A stretch of DNA of 64,000 nucleotides, taken from positions 24,333-88,332 of IMG/VR virus record IMGVR_UViG_3300021400_000686; one strand, given 5' to 3'. Under the pieces are notes generated by a model, which was not told where the DNA came from, did not search any database, and saw nothing but the letters and a program-made list of their open reading frames with translations. Source of the stretch: a virus. Lineage: Duplodnaviria; Caudoviricetes. The position numbers and the translations under genes are program-made. Numbering within the stretch: the first letter of the stretch is position 1; each line of letters begins with the position of its first letter. This document shows positions 6,455-30,916 of this stretch, in pieces.

Positions 6455-7048
6455 TTATTCAAAATCAATTCGCCAGTCGTCCTCGTCCTCATCTGTTCCG
6501 TAGCGTGTCATCTTTTCCCCAGCAAGTGTTTCGTTATAGTTCTCGATTTTTACCCCTGTGCCAGAGTATGCGGACGTTGAGCCGTTGTCGTAAATGACGC
6601 CCTTAATGTTGGACAACTTCATTTTGCTTGTATCGTCGCCCTCGCTAAACACCTCAATATCACCGTTTCTATAAAGAATTGCGATAGAACTATCCGACCA
6701 CATATCACCATTGTTTTTGACGTCTTGTAATATCACGCTCTTCATCTCGTCCATCGAATAGCGTTCAAGAATCTGCCCGTTTGCCATTTCAATGGATTTC
6801 CCCCTCGACGGACACTTGCCTTTCATCAAATCAGCGACCTTCTTGTTTTCTTTGTCGAAATGTTGTCTAAGTTTAGGGCTTATCTTGCTCTCTTTGATTT
6901 TATCTGCAACTTTCCCTGTTGCGTGACCGTCCTCATCAAGGGGAATGTGCGTACCGTTAATTGTTATCCAGTCTTCTGGCTCCTCGTCGAAGCGGGCGTG
7001 CCACTTACTCCTGATTGTTTCGATCTGTTTATTTGTTTTCATGCCCAC
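6455..7048 (-). CDS. Leader-bearing cargo protein, unknown C-terminal domain
   Basis: IRSKWHARFD leader; WITINGTHIPLDEDG. Confidence 0.6.
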   Translation of the reverse strand: MGMKTNKQIETIRSKWHARFDEEPEDWITINGTHIPLDEDGHATGKVADKIKESKISPKLRQHFDKENKKVADLMKGKCPSRGKSIEMANGQILERYSMDEMKSVILQDVKNNGDMWSDSSIAILYRNGDIEVFSEGDDTSKMKLSNIKGVIYDNGSTSAYSGTGVKIENYNETLAGEKMTRYGTDEDEDDWRIDFE

Positions 7049-24437: not shown

Positions 24438-25163
24438 TTACGGGATTACTGGAACTATATGCGTTCCGTCCCGTGATAAAATTATTTTCCCCCACTTTGT
24501 CGGAACATGTGTATTGGAATCGCCCTTCTTGACCGCCTCACCAATCACTTCCGTATGTTCGAAAAGGACTCTAAGATTCCCACTTTCGTAAAGAACCGTT
24601 CCCTCTGTAATGTACTTATCCACAAGCTTCTGTACATCCTCTTCTGGAATTGTAAGATAACTCGGATACTTCTTTTCCGCAACCCTTTTTTGATATTCTT
24701 TTGTGCCGGGGATATGTTCCCTCTGTTTATCCTTTTTCACGGCCTGTGAATAAGTACCTTCTTTAAGCCTTTCCCCAACGATTTTCTTAAGTTGGTCTTG
24801 GCTCATTGCCCTGTACTTATCTCTTTCCGCCTTCGCTTGTTGTTTGGCGCTCTGGCCTTTATTTTGGCCGTTTTCCGACGTTTTCTTCTCCTCGTCGGTA
24901 CTTTTATCGCCGTTCTCGTTATCGCGAGGATTTTCAGCCTTTTTGGTTTTTGCCTCTTCCTCGTTCTTCTCGATCTCCTTGCCGATCTCTCCCCCAAGGC
25001 TTCCGTCGTCTTCAAGTGGGACTGGCTGATGGTTTATTGTAATAAACTGCTTCTTAGGATCGTGATTAACTATATGAATTTTTTTCTTCCGCTTCTCATC
25101 GCGAGCGTCCATCCTTGCAAGATATTTAGTTTTGATTTCTCTGAGAAGCTCGTAAACGTTCAT
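24438..25163 (-). CDS. Leader-bearing cargo protein with Bacterial toxin 50 (Ntox50) RNase-like domain
   Basis: IKTKYLARMD leader; KQREHIPGTKEY...SYLTIPEEDVQKLVDKY...TKWGKIILSRDGTHIVP. Confidence 0.75.
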   Translation of the reverse strand: MNVYELLREIKTKYLARMDARDEKRKKKIHIVNHDPKKQFITINHQPVPLEDDGSLGGEIGKEIEKNEEEAKTKKAENPRDNENGDKSTDEEKKTSENGQNKGQSAKQQAKAERDKYRAMSQDQLKKIVGERLKEGTYSQAVKKDKQREHIPGTKEYQKRVAEKKYPSYLTIPEEDVQKLVDKYITEGTVLYESGNLRVLFEHTEVIGEAVKKGDSNTHVPTKWGKIILSRDGTHIVPVIP

Positions 25164-25291: not shown

Positions 25292-25591
25292 TCACTTTTC
25301 CATATATAAAATTTGTCCGTCTATCGCATACCCCAAATCAATGTCCACCGCGTCATCATCAAAATCGGCATCTTTTTCCGCTCCGAGAATTCCGTAAATC
25401 TCATCCTCATATCCACTATCGATCAAGCGATGAAGCGTATCCTCTAAGCATCCACCAAGATCAATATAGGCAATGTCCCCATCTGGTACGATCACATAGT
25501 GCTCGAAATACTGTGATGTAACGCCGAACCTACAGACATGTTCGCCTTCCCCACACAACTCCTTTATGATCTTATACCCTCTGTCGCTCAT
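25292..25591 (-). CDS. Hypothetical protein downstream of the RAMP-like gene
   Basis: ORF with RBS, co-oriented with the RAMP-like gene. Confidence 0.5.
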   Translation of the reverse strand: MSDRGYKIIKELCGEGEHVCRFGVTSQYFEHYVIVPDGDIAYIDLGGCLEDTLHRLIDSGYEDEIYGILGAEKDADFDDDAVDIDLGYAIDGQILYMEK

Positions 25592-25606: not shown

Positions 25607-26344
25607 TTATGCAGTCCAAAGCTTTTTCCAAGTGCTCGTCTTAAGATTTCCACCAATCACCTCTCCTTCCTCGTTAAGGATTTCATAAAGGAACGCACCG
25701 CATCCGGAATTCCGCCACTGTAGCATCCCGTTGTACTGGCCATAGTTCAGCCATTCCAAAAGTGCCATCACCCACTCTTCATTAAGACAGCGCACCGTGA
25801 ACTCTACCGTTGACCCAGAAGGAACTGTCTCAGATGACGCAAGCGCTACCCTCGGGCCTTGCGCCGTCTCCGCACGAAGCGGTCTCTCAATAACCCCCAT
25901 CTCACCGCTCAACTTAAACTTGATTTTTCTCGGGGCCACAAGAATGCACTGATCCAGAATTTTACGGAACGCCTTCAGCTTCTCCGTATGCTTCGCGCTC
26001 GCCATTCCTTTACATCTCTGAAGGGAAGAACAAGCCGCCTTGAAGAACCCCCTTACTTGATAATCCCACATGAACGGATTTCCGTTTTCGTCTTTTGGAA
26101 ATACCGTCATTCCCTTGTCGGCAACTTCGTCAACGCCAAGCGCCTCAACCTCTTCTTCCTTTGATAATGCGTCTGGTGCCTTGCTTGCGATATACGCTCT
26201 ATAAACATCCTCTTGCGATGTTGCCGTACCGAGAACATCTGCAATAAATGTCAGACGAACTCTCACATCGTACCCGTCGTCACCTGTTTCTCTCTCCGCT
26301 TCAAAAGCATTTACAATTGACTCTAACGATCTTGCCATTTTCAT
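25607..26344 (-). CDS. Stand-alone RAMP/Cas7-like (Csf2-like) protein
   Basis: N-terminal strand VRVRLTFIADVLGT; YQVRGFFKAA helix; RPLRAETAQGPR thumb-like region; C-terminal glycine-rich loop YGQYNGMLQWRNSGCGAF. Confidence 0.65.
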   Translation of the reverse strand: MKMARSLESIVNAFEAERETGDDGYDVRVRLTFIADVLGTATSQEDVYRAYIASKAPDALSKEEEVEALGVDEVADKGMTVFPKDENGNPFMWDYQVRGFFKAACSSLQRCKGMASAKHTEKLKAFRKILDQCILVAPRKIKFKLSGEMGVIERPLRAETAQGPRVALASSETVPSGSTVEFTVRCLNEEWVMALLEWLNYGQYNGMLQWRNSGCGAFLYEILNEEGEVIGGNLKTSTWKKLWTA

Positions 26345-26352
26345 ACCTCCTT

Positions 26353-26875
26353 TTACATTACCTTAACCTTACTACGCATCGCTTTGCTATGCCACTACAC
26401 CACAAGACGATTCCATTCTTCGCCATACCAATACAAAGCCTTTACGTTACCACGCTTTACTTCACAACGCAGAACCTTCGCGTTACCATACTCGGCTTCA
26501 CCACATACTACTTCACCGATACGTAGCCCCACACCGCGATACCATTCCACTGCCATTACGTAACAACACTCAACAGCAACTCGCATTACCGTTCCATAAC
26601 ATCAAATCACACGACTATACCACCGCTTCTCAATACCTCTCTTTTCATAACCAACACAAGACGATTCCATACTTCGCCATACCACAGCATTACAGATACA
26701 TTACTCCGCCGCGCCTCTCGGAACAATTTCAAAACCCAACCTTGCCTGACCGCACGTTACAATGCCATGCCTTCACTTCGCGTTACCATTCATTACATGT
26801 CCCTACCCTACCAACACAACGCCTTACCGTCCACCGCAGTACCCATAACAAAACAACACCTTGCCTTGCTATACC
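26353..26875 (-). repeat. About 520 nt 5-nt-periodic NGY-NN array, candidate guide RNA locus
   Basis: Minus strand reads GGTAT AGCAA GGCAA GGTGT TGTTT TGTTA ... GGCAT GGCAT TGTAA CGTGC GGTCA GGCAA GGTTG GGTTT ...; ends at the RBS of the RAMP-like gene. Confidence 0.8.
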
Positions 26876-26876
26876 A

Positions 26877-27635
26877 TCACTTAGCAACGGCCATAAAAGC
26901 CTTTTCCCAGATACTCGCCTCCTTCTTTGCGAACTCAAGCTCCATCTTCATTGCCTTCACTTCATCACTCTCAATCACCTTCTCCACAATCTTATCCTTA
27001 TAAACGACCTTCTCAACCTCCTTCTCGACCTCGGTAACATTCATGCCAGCGAGGCTCGCGATCTGCTTGAACAGCGCGTTGTCAATCGACTGCAACGTCG
27101 TTTTATCAACCTTACGAGTGTAAACCGACCAAACCCTATGTGGGTTTACAAAGCACTCCTCCCCGTTAAGATTGAACCGCACGCACGTGTCCGTAATGAA
27201 CTCGCGCTTCTCGGCAACTTTTCCGATATCCAAGTACACTAACGTATCATAGAATACCTTCAGCACAAGATACCGTCCCTCGTAAATGCCACCGACAAAG
27301 AAATCATTCATCCTCTTCCCCATGATCGCTTCGCCAGCGGTTCTGTCCGTGTAGCCCTCGGCGTTTTTCATAACATTATCATTTTTCTTTTCGTCCTTCC
27401 CCTCGGGCTTTCCAGTCGATCCTTCGTACACGTAGCACCTCTTTCCTTCCGCGTTTTCTCGCTTTACAATTCCATGCGACTCAAACTGATTTGCACGGTT
27501 GTACATTACGCTCGGCGGAAACCCCGTAAGAACAGATATTTCCGAAATGGTGATTCCCTCTTCACCATATTCCTTTATCGTTTCGACGATCTTCCCCATA
27601 ACATCGTCTCCGTACTTACTCTTATTACCGCGCAC
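26877..27635 (-). CDS. Hypothetical protein with N-terminal winged-HTH-like region
   Basis: IVETIKEYGEEGITISEISVLTGFPPSVMYNRANQFESHGIVKRE. Confidence 0.5.
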   Translation of the reverse strand: MRGNKSKYGDDVMGKIVETIKEYGEEGITISEISVLTGFPPSVMYNRANQFESHGIVKRENAEGKRCYVYEGSTGKPEGKDEKKNDNVMKNAEGYTDRTAGEAIMGKRMNDFFVGGIYEGRYLVLKVFYDTLVYLDIGKVAEKREFITDTCVRFNLNGEECFVNPHRVWSVYTRKVDKTTLQSIDNALFKQIASLAGMNVTEVEKEVEKVVYKDKIVEKVIESDEVKAMKMELEFAKKEASIWEKAFMAVAK

Positions 27636-27862: not shown

Positions 27863-28273
27863 TTACCAAACCCTTTTCACACCGCCGTTAATAGGCTGAA
27901 TTCCGATCGTTCCAAACTCACTGCAATCTGGCATATCTACATTCACCCCGTACGCTAAAGCCTGTCCATCCTTCAAGTCGGCCATGTCCTCTTTCCACTC
28001 TCCCGTCCATTTTGACACGTACAGGAGCTCATAAATCACGCCGTATAGCGTAAGCGTCTTGATCACATGATAGACAACTGCTTCGTTCTCGTCCTCGAAG
28101 CGCTTGACCATTTTTCGCTCATTCTCGTCGAGCCAATAAAGATATCCTTCGCCTTCGGATAAGTTCACTATATTGTACTTCTCGAACTCCGTTACAGTCT
28201 GATCTATAATTCCAAGATAACGCAGTCTTTTGACGCCCTCAGCGTGCTGTCTGTCTTTCATGATCTCCGCCAT
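27863..28273 (-). CDS. Hypothetical phage protein
   Basis: ORF in operon. Confidence 0.55.
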   Translation of the reverse strand: MAEIMKDRQHAEGVKRLRYLGIIDQTVTEFEKYNIVNLSEGEGYLYWLDENERKMVKRFEDENEAVVYHVIKTLTLYGVIYELLYVSKWTGEWKEDMADLKDGQALAYGVNVDMPDCSEFGTIGIQPINGGVKRVW

Positions 28274-28276
28274 CCG

Positions 28277-28633
28277 TTACCCCCTTGCAAAATTCTTACA
28301 CCAGAAGCCTTCGTCGAACATGTTGTCGTTGTAAAGGCTGTACTCATAAGCCACCCGAACTGTGTTCTTGTTTGGCTTGCGTGTGACTTCCATGTCGTTG
28401 TTTACGAAGAAATTCACCCCGCTTCTCGTGCCTTCGAGCATGATGTACCATCCGCTCGTCTTGCTGTCACGTCCATGAATGTCCTGAACCTTCGCCACCT
28501 GAAGCGAATAGCAACTTGTCAGATAGCAATTTCTCTGGCAAGCCTTTGTGATCTGCTCCCGAAGCTTGTCTGTCATAACCTCCGCGTCGGTAAGAAATCC
28601 GACAACCATTTCCGCGATCCCTCTATTTCTCAT
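28277..28633 (-). CDS. Hypothetical phage protein
   Basis: ORF in operon. Confidence 0.5.
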   Translation of the reverse strand: MRNRGIAEMVVGFLTDAEVMTDKLREQITKACQRNCYLTSCYSLQVAKVQDIHGRDSKTSGWYIMLEGTRSGVNFFVNNDMEVTRKPNKNTVRVAYEYSLYNDNMFDEGFWCKNFARG

Positions 28634-28836
28634 CTGTCCTCCCGATTACTTTAACAGCTCATCCGTCTCTAAATCTAAAATGTGAAGAACCTCTGGGTCA
28701 TTCATCAGAAGCCACAAAACGCTCGTTGTATAAATCTCGTGGCGTCCATTCTTGAACTCAACCTCAACTTCGTGATATTTTTTCATTTAAGCATCCTCCC
28801 ATCCAAGAATTGATGTGGGGCCGAAGCCCCACGCCA

Positions 28837-29118
28837 TTAAACCGCGTATTTTTTGAAGGGGCGCGTCACCTCCGTTTTCAGATACATCTTGTAAAGGTCT
28901 CCATGCTCCTTCTTGAAAGCAGTGGTATCGAATTTGTTGCTCACGACCTCTTTGTAGTAGAGAACGAATTTGCCAGTGTCAATCACGTCGACGCCCTTGG
29001 CATCCATATCCCTTTTCAGCTCCTCTTTCAGAGCATCAGCTTTTTCCTTGAGAGAAGCGATCTCCGCCTCAATCTCCTCAATCTTACGAACACGGTTGTC
29101 AATCATCTTGTTGGTCAT
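28837..29118 (-). CDS. Small coiled-coil phage protein
   Basis: First gene after the promoter at 29186; RBS GGAGGT. Confidence 0.6.
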   Translation of the reverse strand: MTNKMIDNRVRKIEEIEAEIASLKEKADALKEELKRDMDAKGVDVIDTGKFVLYYKEVVSNKFDTTAFKKEHGDLYKMYLKTEVTRPFKKYAV

Positions 29119-29956: not shown

Positions 29957-30916
29957 TTATGCCACCAGTTCCGATCCGTTTGCCGTGTAAGCGTAGCGCC
30001 CACGTCCTACACCCTCAAGCTTCGCCGACATGTGAAGTCGGCACGTCTTATACTCCTCGCCCACAAGGCCCATCTGCTTTAACCAAAGGCGCATCACGTA
30101 CTTGGGGTTCTCGTACCGTGCGACGGGTTCTTCTGGCCGAGCATACCGAACCGACTTTGCGTAATTGCTCAGGGCCAAGCAGAACTGAATATAGGCTTTC
30201 AGCTTCCCCGCGTGAATTCCACCGCCCTTACCGTCAACCCAGTTGTCGAACTGGAATGCTCTAAACTCGATAGTTCCCTTCGTGAATGTTGCATGAAGGT
30301 TGAGCATGTGATACCGCGAGTTATTGTAGTGCGCCATACGTCCGCTATCACAACCCTGTGACTGATACCACACATCCGCAAGCTCTTCCATCGTCTTCGG
30401 CTTTTTGCTATTTACCGCAGAAATGAACCGAGGATCAACCACTCGACACCATCTATAGAGTCGATCGTTTCCAATACCTACCGCGTCGGCGATTAGAGTC
30501 TCGTGACCCGCCATGATGTTCGCAAGATTTCTAAGAGTCTTCGCCGTGTGTCCGTTAGCGCCAATGTGGACATGAACCCCACACCCTCGGCTCGGGGAGC
30601 TCTTCGCACCCGCCTTCCGAAGCTCTCGGACAACCCCCTGTAACGTCTCGATATCGTTGTAATAAAGGATCGGGGTGACAAGCTCACACTTGTGTTCGCT
30701 GTCCCCTTCGATCGATGAGTCATATTTCATCGACCACTTACGGCCCGTCATATCGTAGGCTATCCATTCGTCATAAGCGCCACCTACATACCGATACTGA
30801 TCTGTCCCGAAAAATTTAGCTACAACCATCGCCGCGTCTTTCCGCGTGATGTTATTCATTTCAACTTCAACGCCGATTGTCTGGCCCTTAAGATCGTCTC
30901 TAAGGTTTTTTCTCAT
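29957..30916 (-). CDS. Amidoligase (COOH-NH2 ligase) family enzyme
   Basis: GVEVEM, DSSI, ELVTP, GCGVHVHIG, RYHMLNL, TIEFR. Confidence 0.85.
   Translation of the reverse strand: MRKNLRDDLKGQTIGVEVEMNNITRKDAAMVVAKFFGTDQYRYVGGAYDEWIAYDMTGRKWSMKYDSSIEGDSEHKCELVTPILYYNDIETLQGVVRELRKAGAKSSPSRGCGVHVHIGANGHTAKTLRNLANIMAGHETLIADAVGIGNDRLYRWCRVVDPRFISAVNSKKPKTMEELADVWYQSQGCDSGRMAHYNNSRYHMLNLHATFTKGTIEFRAFQFDNWVDGKGGGIHAGKLKAYIQFCLALSNYAKSVRYARPEEPVARYENPKYVMRLWLKQMGLVGEEYKTCRLHMSAKLEGVGRGRYAYTANGSELVA

What the first reader, a model, noticed from the sequence alone, without database searches (positions are those of the whole stretch)
25607..26875. Stand-alone RAMP/Cas7-like gene with an upstream 5-nt-periodic NGY-NN array: candidate phage RNA-guided system
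Seen: the 523 nt between two co-oriented genes read on the minus strand as roughly 100 pentamers with G at position 2 and mostly C/T at position 3 (for example 26875 onward GGTAT AGCAA GGCAA GGTGT TGTTT TGTTA; 26771-26732 GGCAT GGCAT TGTAA CGTGC GGTCA GGCAA GGTTG GGTTT). Positions 4-5 vary freely and there are occasional 1-2 nt phase slips. The array ends at the RBS (AAGGAGGT) of a 245-aa gene with a C-terminal G-rich loop (GMLQWRNSGCGAF). No cas1, cas3, cas5, cas6 or repeat-spacer array is in the window. Established: RAMP/Cas7 proteins polymerise along guide RNA with a fixed nucleotide period. Inference: the protein oligomerises on this RNA one pentamer per subunit, the constant NGY is the protein anchor and the variable NN dinucleotides encode a gapped target, for example promoters of competing phages. 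From memory, and not verifiable here, this resembles recently reported viral RAMP systems with GGY/NN guide RNAs (VIPR), so it may be a new member rather than wholly undescribed.
Basis: partly seen in the sequence, partly recalled or inferred. Interest (0 to 1): 0.95.

Follow-up and report, generated by a model that had tools for sequence, protein, structure and literature searches.

The report
Phage VIPR system with 31-nt guide modules
An 88-kb gut phage carries a lone Cas7-like protein gene preceded by a 530-base RNA array written in five-base steps; this is a real example of the CRISPR-related VIPR systems first published in 2026, from a very large gut-phage branch whose arrays have a regular 31-base module structure.

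Summary
On the minus strand, 26345-26876 reads as about 103 units with G at position 2 (96%) and a pyrimidine at position 3 (87%). It is the only such tract in the 88-kb phage genome. The adjoining 243/245-aa protein folds as a minimal Cas7-type RAMP (Z 10.5 to Csm3/Cmr4). It aligns end to end, weakly, with the canonical Vipr family of phage SUSP1 (hhalign 72%, E 3e-5). That alignment puts SUSP1's G-loop W178-R179 on W210-R211 here.

Of 160 homolog loci, 157 carry a same-strand period-5 array next to the gene. The phage has no cas1, no CRISPR array and no second RAMP. I file it as a VIPR system: a known kind, new member.

Differences from the studied type II:
- one continuous array of about 100 units with no structured tails;
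- a relaxed first base (NGY rather than GGY);
- no family-wide accessory gene;
- a clade-wide 31-nt super-period (five pentamers plus one hexamer).

The published "staggered arrays" may be the same thing as that super-period.

Targets could not be identified, and expression could not be tested. Earlier agents of this scan found the same grammar in another phage on other DNA.

The parts
26877..27635 (-). Upstream co-oriented gene (252 aa) whose stop codon abuts the array. It has a weak N-terminal HTH. It is probably the first gene of the transcript that carries the array, and it is not a family-wide accessory gene.
   Evidence: ORF list. Pfam HTH_IclR E 0.0033, below the curated cut-off; weak PHROG Ren-like match. 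No NCBIfam hit. A homolog was found only in the syntenic sister phage L084 among 163 loci. A promoter-like site lies at 27683-27655 on the minus strand.
26353..26876 (-). vrRNA-type array: about 103 units of N-G-Y-N-N, grouped into about 17 blocks, each led by a GGY unit and closed by a hexamer (31-nt super-period). It is C-poor, unstructured, and has no internal promoter, terminator or ribozyme.
   Evidence: autocorrelation peaks at 5, 10, 15, then 21, 26, 31, then 62. No Rfam match at E<=1. No promoter or terminator on the minus strand inside it. Fold z-score -1.6.
26656..26688 (-). One complete 31-nt module (GGTAT GGCGA AGTAT GGAAT CGTCT TGTGTT). It is repeated at 26402-26428 and is also present in the otherwise non-alignable array of sister phage L084.
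   Evidence: the repeat finder family D1; blastn of the window locus against L084; parse.
26402..26428 (-). Second copy of the conserved module.
26345..26352 (-). Shine-Dalgarno AAGGAGGT of the RAMP gene; the array runs right up to it.
25607..26344 (-). vipr-like gene: a minimal single-RRM Cas7-type RAMP (245 aa from the first ATG; more likely 243 aa from the ATG at 26338).
   Evidence: Translation. AlphaFold2 model, pLDDT 83. VIA-align Z 10.5/10.4/10.2 to Csm3, Cmr4 and type VII Cas7; the top ~28 matches are all CRISPR RAMPs. Foldseek E 2e-6. PDB profile hits to type VII Cas7 (E 1e-5) and Csm4. hhalign to the SUSP1 Vipr family: 72%, E 3.4e-5, 184 columns.
25691..25741 (-). Glycine-rich loop (residues 202-218: G202, G206, Q209-W210-R211-N212, G216, F218). 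It aligns with SUSP1 Vipr G174...D177-W178-R179...F185.
   Evidence: Invariant and near-invariant columns; alignments; roles of the SUSP1 residues from 10.64898/2026.04.26.720927, numbering verified.
25823..25897 (-). Long beta-hairpin (residues 150-174), the likely thumb. It carries the conserved R154, L156, R157, G163 and R165.
   Evidence: Secondary structure of the model; conservation. Calling it the thumb is an inference from RAMP architecture.
25292..25591 (-). Downstream co-oriented 99-aa gene of unknown function. It is not linked to vipr outside the sister phage, so it is not shown to be part of the system.

Best explanation
This is a phage-encoded VIPR system (Viral Interference Programmable Repeat). 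Shown here: a lone minimal Cas7-like RAMP gene sits directly behind a 530-nt same-strand array of N-G-Y-N-N units, and this pairing is conserved across a very large family of gut phages while the array content turns over. Inferred from the published type II system: the operon is transcribed through the array, and Vipr protomers coat the RNA, one per five-base unit. The G-loop Trp-Arg pair (W210, R211) and the thumb would hold the fixed G and pyrimidine flipped out. The exposed variable bases would then pair discontinuously with double-stranded DNA of competing mobile elements and silence them. Specific to this clade: the array is built of 31-nt modules, each with one strong GGC/GGY unit, four looser N-G units and a closing hexamer (consensus N-G-S-A-A-N). 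It has no structured tail, no ribozyme and no dedicated accessory gene. How the long RNA is divided into working guides, and which bases are read, is not known.
For: - Fold: a Cas7-type RAMP with a G-loop and a long hairpin.
- Sequence link to bona fide Vipr: full-length co-linear hhalign to the SUSP1 family, probability 72%, E 3.4e-5. It matches beta-1, the helix-1 G..AC motif and G(D/Q)WR..G.F. The identity of SUSP1 Vipr was checked against the published residue numbers.
- Array: period 5, strand-specific, unique in the genome.
- Linkage: 79/80 viral and 78/80 cellular-assembly homolog loci have a 200 to 900+ nt array on the gene's own strand, directly upstream or downstream.
- Guide-like evolution: against sister phage L084 the gene is 78% identical and the flanks 64-73%, but the arrays do not align. 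Only module-sized blocks are shared, at shuffled positions.
- Not CRISPR: no Cas1, no CRISPR array, one RAMP only, in a roughly 90% complete virus record.
- RNA properties: 10% C, not significantly structured.
- The literature defines VIPR by exactly these features and records YNNNG/NNNNG variants and tail-less 'staggered' arrays.
Against: - There are no expression or RNP data for this locus or clade.
- The sequence link to canonical Vipr is weak. HMM search of the SUSP1 genome found nothing, and the first profile gave only 27-47% probability.
- The type II hallmark of 9-16 repeats plus a conserved structured 3' tail is absent, and no vap gene is linked.
- No natural target was found under any rule tested.
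- The closest solved folds are RNA-targeting type III and VII Cas7 subunits, so DNA targeting is assumed, not shown.
Confidence: 0.88

Rival explanations
1. The RNP is real, but it targets RNA rather than double-stranded DNA, or acts as a non-targeting regulatory or scaffold RNP. That would make it behave more like type III or type VII Cas7 backbones than like SUSP1 VIPR.
For: The best structural matches are Csm3, Cmr4 and type VII Cas7, all from RNA-targeting complexes. No DNA target was found under the published 1-nt-skip rule or six other rules. The clade is only distantly related to the one experimentally studied type.
Against: The protein lacks any catalytic or effector partner in the locus. 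Every VIPR tested so far binds dsDNA. The G-loop Trp-Arg pair that reads G2 and Y3 in the DNA-binding SUSP1 complex is near-invariant here. The target searches had low power, so their failure says little.
Confidence: 0.08
2. The periodic tract is a DNA-level element, for example a bent or protein-phased region, origin or packaging signal (31 bp is three helical turns). The RAMP gene would then be an unrelated neighbour.
For: The mean period of 5.17 is half a helical repeat, and 31 nt equals 3 x 10.3. No transcript evidence is available.
Against: The signal is strictly strand-specific, and the G-rich strand is the RAMP gene's coding strand in 157 of 160 loci, whether the array lies upstream or downstream. 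A DNA-structural element has no reason to keep that orientation or that neighbour. The array content is hypervariable while its frame is conserved. The same pairing is experimentally an RNA guide in SUSP1.
Confidence: 0.03

Closest known systems
VIPR type II, Escherichia phage SUSP1 (KT454805.2: vipr 28474-29061, vap1 28031-28471, four vrRNAs in the flanking gaps); bioRxiv 10.64898/2026.04.26.720920 and 10.64898/2026.04.26.720927
   Same: Both are phage-encoded. Both have a lone small single-RRM RAMP with a G-loop and thumb. Both have a same-strand non-coding tract of five-base units with fixed G-pyrimidine and variable bases. The same lag-5 scan picks out both loci. The G-loop Trp-Arg pair and the helix-1 G..AC motif align. 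Neither has cas genes or a CRISPR array.
   Different: The protein is only remotely similar (72% hhalign probability; no HMM hit) and is about 50 residues longer, with a poorly modelled insert at 56-89. SUSP1 has discrete ~100-nt vrRNAs of 10-15 strictly in-phase units, each with a hairpin tail. Here there is one continuous tract of about 100 units with a +1 slip every six units and no tail. Both SUSP1 G1 readers are replaced (H17 by T40, D177 by Q209), and position 1 is G in 48% here, against roughly 60-70% in SUSP1. No vap1-like gene is present.
Published VIPR variants: alternative repeats (NNNGG, YNNNG, NNNNG; WGT/NN, TGH/NN) and 'staggered arrays with overlapping vrRNAs' (same preprint, fig. 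S17-S18; bioRxiv 10.64898/2026.10.21.760802)
   Same: The degenerate first G (NGY/NN is YNNNG in the other register) and a tail-less continuous array in which one unit ends where the next begins, offset by one nucleotide, both fit what is seen here.
   Different: The figures and data tables are not held, so I could not check whether this clade, its 31-nt period or the N-G-S-A-A-N hexamer are what those authors describe. According to the text, the staggered arrays were not confirmed by small-RNA sequencing.
CRISPR Class 1 backbone subunits (Csm3/Cmr4 of type III, Cas7 of types VII, IV and I)
   Same: Same fold and glycine-rich loop (Z 8-10.5; PDB profile E 1e-5). They polymerise along a guide RNA with a fixed step and a flipped base.
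   Different: No cas1, cas2, cas6, large subunit or repeat-spacer array is present. The step is 5 nt, not 6. It is a single small protein in a phage.

Membership tests
VIPR system | Vipr protein: a small RAMP with one RRM core, a glycine-rich loop and a thumb | tested here: met
   AlphaFold2 model, pLDDT 83. The top ~28 structural matches are all CRISPR RAMPs, Z up to 10.5 over residues 21-232. The G-loop (202-218) and the hairpin (150-174) are conserved.
VIPR system | Protein homologous to the Vipr family (seed X1U2U4 / SUSP1 Vipr) | tested here: inconclusive
   hhalign of the diverse family profile A3 against the SUSP1-family profile A2 gives probability 72%, E 3.4e-5, with 184 co-linear columns. 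Narrower profiles gave 27% and 47%. HMM search of the SUSP1 genome found nothing. X1U2U4 itself was not available.
VIPR system | Adjacent non-coding tract of tandem pentanucleotide units, GGY/NN or a related consensus, on the gene's strand | tested here: met
   103 units with G2 at 96% and Y3 at 87%. It is unique in the genome. It is present in 157 of 160 homolog loci.
VIPR system | Fixed positions conserved while variable positions are hypervariable between relatives | tested here: met
   The periodic frame and punctuation are shared, but the arrays of 88%-identical proteins do not align. Logo of 335 modules. Shared short blocks centre on the punctuation.
VIPR system | Minimal locus without cas genes or a CRISPR array, in a virus or provirus | tested here: met
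   G000 is an 88,332-nt virus record, about 90% complete. It has no Cas1, no CRISPR-like tandem repeat and one RAMP. A terminase and other phage genes flank the locus.
VIPR system | vrRNA is transcribed and co-purifies with Vipr | not testable with these tools
   This needs small-RNA sequencing and pull-down.
VIPR system | Variable bases specify a gapped DNA target (1-nt-skip rule) | tested here: inconclusive
   Ten register rules were tested against 0.8-1.5 Mb of related phage DNA, and four pattern scans were run on IMG/VR. None gave more than chance. The power was low.
VIPR type II (SUSP1-like) | Discrete vrRNAs of 9-16 in-phase YNNGG repeats followed by a conserved structured 3' tail | tested here: not met
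   The tract is continuous, about 100 units, with a +1 slip about every six units. There is no hairpin tail, no Rfam family and no terminator, and the fold z-score is -1.6. SUSP1 shows strict peaks at 5 through 30 and has tails.
VIPR type II (SUSP1-like) | Linked vap accessory gene | tested here: not met
   The window's neighbours recur only in the syntenic phage L084. The commonest linked families across 163 loci are cI/cro-type HTH regulators and early-region genes such as SSB, ERF and AAA_24.
CRISPR-Cas Class 1 | Repeat-spacer array with adaptation and processing genes and a multi-subunit effector | tested here: not met
   No Cas1, no CRISPR-like array, and a single RAMP gene in the genome.

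The most novel reading that the evidence does not exclude
In this gut-phage clade the working guide is not a ~100-nt vrRNA. It is a 31-nt cassette bound by six protomers, which is one turn of the published six-subunit helix. The cassette is bounded by a conserved ~15-nt punctuation (..G-C-a-a-N-G-S-A-A-N | G-G-C-a..) that serves as a processing or nucleation site. That would make the array a miniature repeat-spacer array, with cassettes gained, lost and shuffled individually. Such an arrangement would be a structural intermediate between VIPR tandem repeats and CRISPR arrays, and would imply a reading rule that differs from the type II NN-x code. It may be what the preprint calls 'staggered arrays', which by its own text were not confirmed experimentally.
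Probability: 0.25. Interest if true: 0.7.

Novelty: new member of a known kind. Interest (0 to 1): 0.4.

Why it matters
VIPR was described only in 2026, and experiments cover essentially one type. This locus belongs to a branch that is very large: 2,092 clusters at 50% identity, 575 IMG/VR stretches, and 170 species-level genome assemblies, mostly gut Clostridia. That branch is still unnamed in Pfam, PHROGs, NCBIfam and the ESM Atlas.

Its arrays differ from the studied type in four ways: one continuous array, a relaxed first base, no tail, and a regular 31-nt module that equals six protomers. Members often sit directly behind the cI/cro switch of temperate phages.

If the modules prove to be separate short guides, the clade would show how a tandem-repeat guide can become a repeat-spacer array. 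It would also offer an even smaller programmable unit. In practical terms, the lag-5 G statistic plus the 5/31/62 autocorrelation signature gives a cheap way to annotate these systems in gut viromes.

Tried and rejected
- Family libraries: Pfam, PHROGs and NCBIfam found nothing for the RAMP. The ESM Atlas returned only unnamed viral clusters.
- HMM search of the SUSP1 genome with the family profile found nothing.
- Short-window Fourier power at exactly period 5 was a poor detector because of the regular +1 slips. I replaced it with a lag-5 statistic.
- Local target search, first set: seven register rules (NN, NNx, NNxx, NNxxx, NNN, NNNx, NNNxx) with 445 guide runs from 83 arrays against 0.83 Mb of related phage DNA gave no excess over unit-shuffled controls.
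- Local target search, second set: three further rules that read position 3 (HNNN, HNNNx, HNNNxx) against 1.46 Mb. The one apparent excess (15 vs 3-5) came from array segments that overlapped the 3' end of vipr.
- IMG/VR scan with the longest in-phase run under the 1-nt-skip rule gave 7 hits (4 independent sequences), near the chance expectation. Two hits lie in-frame in a 317-aa structural-looking protein with the skip at the wobble base (L168, L171). Their flanks do not extend, other guides do not converge on them (4 near-matches against a null of 2.2 +/- 1.8), and the phage has no homolog.
- Two more IMG/VR scans gave 0 and 2 hits.
- Codon-like reading of the triplets at positions 4, 5 and 1': only about 10% depletion of stops in either orientation, too weak to support it.
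- RNA evidence: no RNA holder was listed for this stretch.
- Complex prediction was not used. A homo-filament without its RNA is a poor test, and the verdict does not depend on it.
- The idea that Q209 replacing D177 explains the relaxed first base is kept only as a hypothesis, because SUSP1's own vrRNAs also have degenerate first bases.

Full report
**Observation.**
It is G-rich and C-poor (G 196, C 53 of 532). G autocorrelation is +0.39 at lag 5, and the top spectral peak is at period 5.17. A slip-tolerant statistic counts G at i and i+5 against neighbouring lags. It exceeds z=4 only at about 26331-26890 on the minus strand in the 64-kb window, peaking at 7.3. The same is true in the whole 88,332-nt genome.

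A dynamic-programming parse gives 103 units. Position 2 is G in 96%, position 3 is a pyrimidine in 87%, and position 1 is G in 48%. The score is 218, against 61 +/- 10 for shuffles. The array ends at AAGGAGGT. Because that RBS abuts the first ATG, the second ATG (26338, 243 aa) is the likelier start, which agrees with the public gene call.

**The protein.**
Pfam, PHROGs and NCBIfam do not recognise it. An AlphaFold2 model built on 44 relatives is confident (pLDDT 83). Its structural matches are uniformly CRISPR RAMP backbone subunits: Csm3 at Z 10.5, Cmr4 at 10.4, type VII Cas7 at 10.2, then type IV, I and III-E Cas7, with Foldseek E 2e-6. Family profiles hit the G-loop of type VII Cas7 (E 1e-5) and Csm4 in PDB sequences. 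The top BFVD match is a 51%-identical gut siphovirus protein already labelled 'Cas system-associated RAMP superfamily protein'.

**What is known.**
VIPR systems were published in 2026. They consist of a lone minimal RAMP (Vipr) plus vrRNAs made of GGY/NN pentamers. One protomer binds each repeat. The GGY is flipped out and held by the G-loop and thumb. The NN dinucleotides pair with dsDNA, skipping every third target base, and the outcome is silencing of rival phages and satellites. The preprint describes seven types, with alternative repeats (NNNGG, YNNNG, NNNNG) and alternative array forms, including tail-less 'staggered' arrays.

I located the reference system in phage SUSP1 (KT454805.2) with my own lag-5 scan. 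I confirmed the protein by the published residue numbers H17, E71, M72, R138, C173, D177, W178 and R179.

**Relationship to canonical Vipr.**
The relationship is distant. An HMM search of the SUSP1 genome finds nothing. Profile-profile comparison gives 27% and 47% probability with a narrow profile. It gives 72%, E 3.4e-5, over 184 co-linear columns with a profile built from mutually diverse representatives.

The alignment matches beta-1 and the helix-1 G..AC motif. It also puts SUSP1 G-loop GDWRPRFGRF on GQWRNSGxGRF here. W178 and R179, which hold G2 and Y3 in the cryo-EM structure, correspond to the near-invariant W210 and R211. Both G1 readers differ (H17 becomes T40, D177 becomes Q209). This fits the relaxed first base, but SUSP1's own vrRNAs are also partly degenerate there, so I keep it as a hypothesis only.

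**Linkage of gene and array.**
In IMG/VR, 79 of 80 homolog loci have a 300 to 900+ nt period-5 G tract on the gene's strand. It lies directly upstream, directly downstream, or one gene away; the one exception is cut 8 nt upstream of the gene. In species-representative genomes, 78 of 80 loci show the same. Those assemblies are mostly gut Clostridia MAGs, with 170 species carrying a homolog.

Against the sister phage L084 (protein 88% identical), the gene is 78% identical at the DNA level and the flanks 64-73%, yet the arrays do not align. Only module-sized blocks are shared, in a different order. A conserved frame with fast-changing content is what a guide array should look like.

**A clade-specific grammar.**
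The slips are nearly all +1 and recur about every six units. In the window and in every homolog array tested, G autocorrelation runs 5, 10, 15, then 21, 26, 31 (a second maximum), then 62. SUSP1 stays on 5 through 30. Over 80 arrays there are 7,286 pentamers and 1,448 hexamers, and the spacing between hexamers has its mode at six units.

The logo of 335 clean modules is GGCaN NGNNN NGNNN NGNNN NGCNN NG(C/G)AAN. Short blocks shared between unrelated arrays start 5-12 nt before a module boundary and end 3-9 nt after it. So the shared element is a ~15-nt punctuation that alternates with a ~16-nt variable stretch.

In the window the punctuation is looser (for example GGTAA CGCGAA GGY), but 15 of 17 hexamers are followed by a GGY unit. 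One whole module occurs twice in the window and once in L084. Six units equal one turn of the published six-subunit Vipr helix.

The array has no Rfam family, no promoter or terminator and no significant structure. It is therefore probably transcribed as part of the operon that starts upstream of the 252-aa gene.

**Context.**
The genome is a roughly 90% complete virus record with no Cas1, no CRISPR array and a single RAMP gene. The window's neighbours recur only in the sister phage. Across 163 loci the commonest linked genes are cI/cro-type HTH regulators (78 loci) and early-region genes. So I see no dedicated vap gene.

**Targets.**
I could not identify any. Ten register rules against up to 1.5 Mb of related phage DNA, and four IMG/VR pattern scans, gave chance-level results. 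One in-frame match with the skip at the wobble base, in a capsid-like gene of two related contigs, is suggestive in form. It does not extend and is not joined by other guides. The stop-codon test on the variable triplets was weak.

**Verdict.**
This is a genuine VIPR system: a known kind and a new member, from a very large and still unannotated gut-phage branch.

The 31-nt module grammar is the most interesting residue. It may be the preprint's 'staggered array', which I could not check because the figures are not held. Earlier agents of this scan reported the same grammar in a jumbo phage, and I derived it here before reading those notes.

Mechanistic steps beyond fold, linkage and array anatomy are inferred from the type II system and have not been tested for this clade.

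Noticed in passing
window 24438-25163 (-): A 241-aa gene two genes downstream of vipr has a C-terminal Ntox50 toxin domain (Pfam E 1.4e-14). The same arrangement is kept in sister phage L084.
   Followed up: partly
L009 2982-3975; L086 137-2364: In about half of the homolog loci (78 of 163), vipr sits in the immunity region of a temperate phage. It lies directly behind a cro-like HTH gene and divergent from a cI-like repressor, and L086 also has an integrase. This suggests early expression.
   Followed up: partly
L168 (hit 6756-6781) and L171 (hit 1965-1990): The longest in-phase run of the window's array matches, under the NN-x rule, the coding strand of a 317-aa capsid-like protein (...TRMMNAQKWFNRRK...) in two 90%-identical IMG/VR phages, with every skip at the wobble base. 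The number of hits is at chance level and the match does not extend.
   Followed up: yes
P0251 (458 aa), P0283 (432 aa): Some family representatives are about twice the normal length and match the profile in two stretches. They may be tandem-fused double RAMPs.
   Followed up: no
L091 and L092 (JAGCAN010000001.1, 86,093 nt): One contig carries two vipr copies 47.9 kb apart with identical match statistics. This is probably a concatemer assembly of a ~48-kb phage rather than two systems.
   Followed up: no
window 26742-27242 (+) and 26248-26526 (+): The antisense strand of the array yields long spurious ORFs (166 and 92 aa) because of its composition. Gene callers may annotate them as proteins.
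   Followed up: no
window 29957-30916 (-): An Amidoligase_2 gene (Pfam E 1e-51) lies in the same leftward gene block, 3 kb upstream of the VIPR locus.
   Followed up: no
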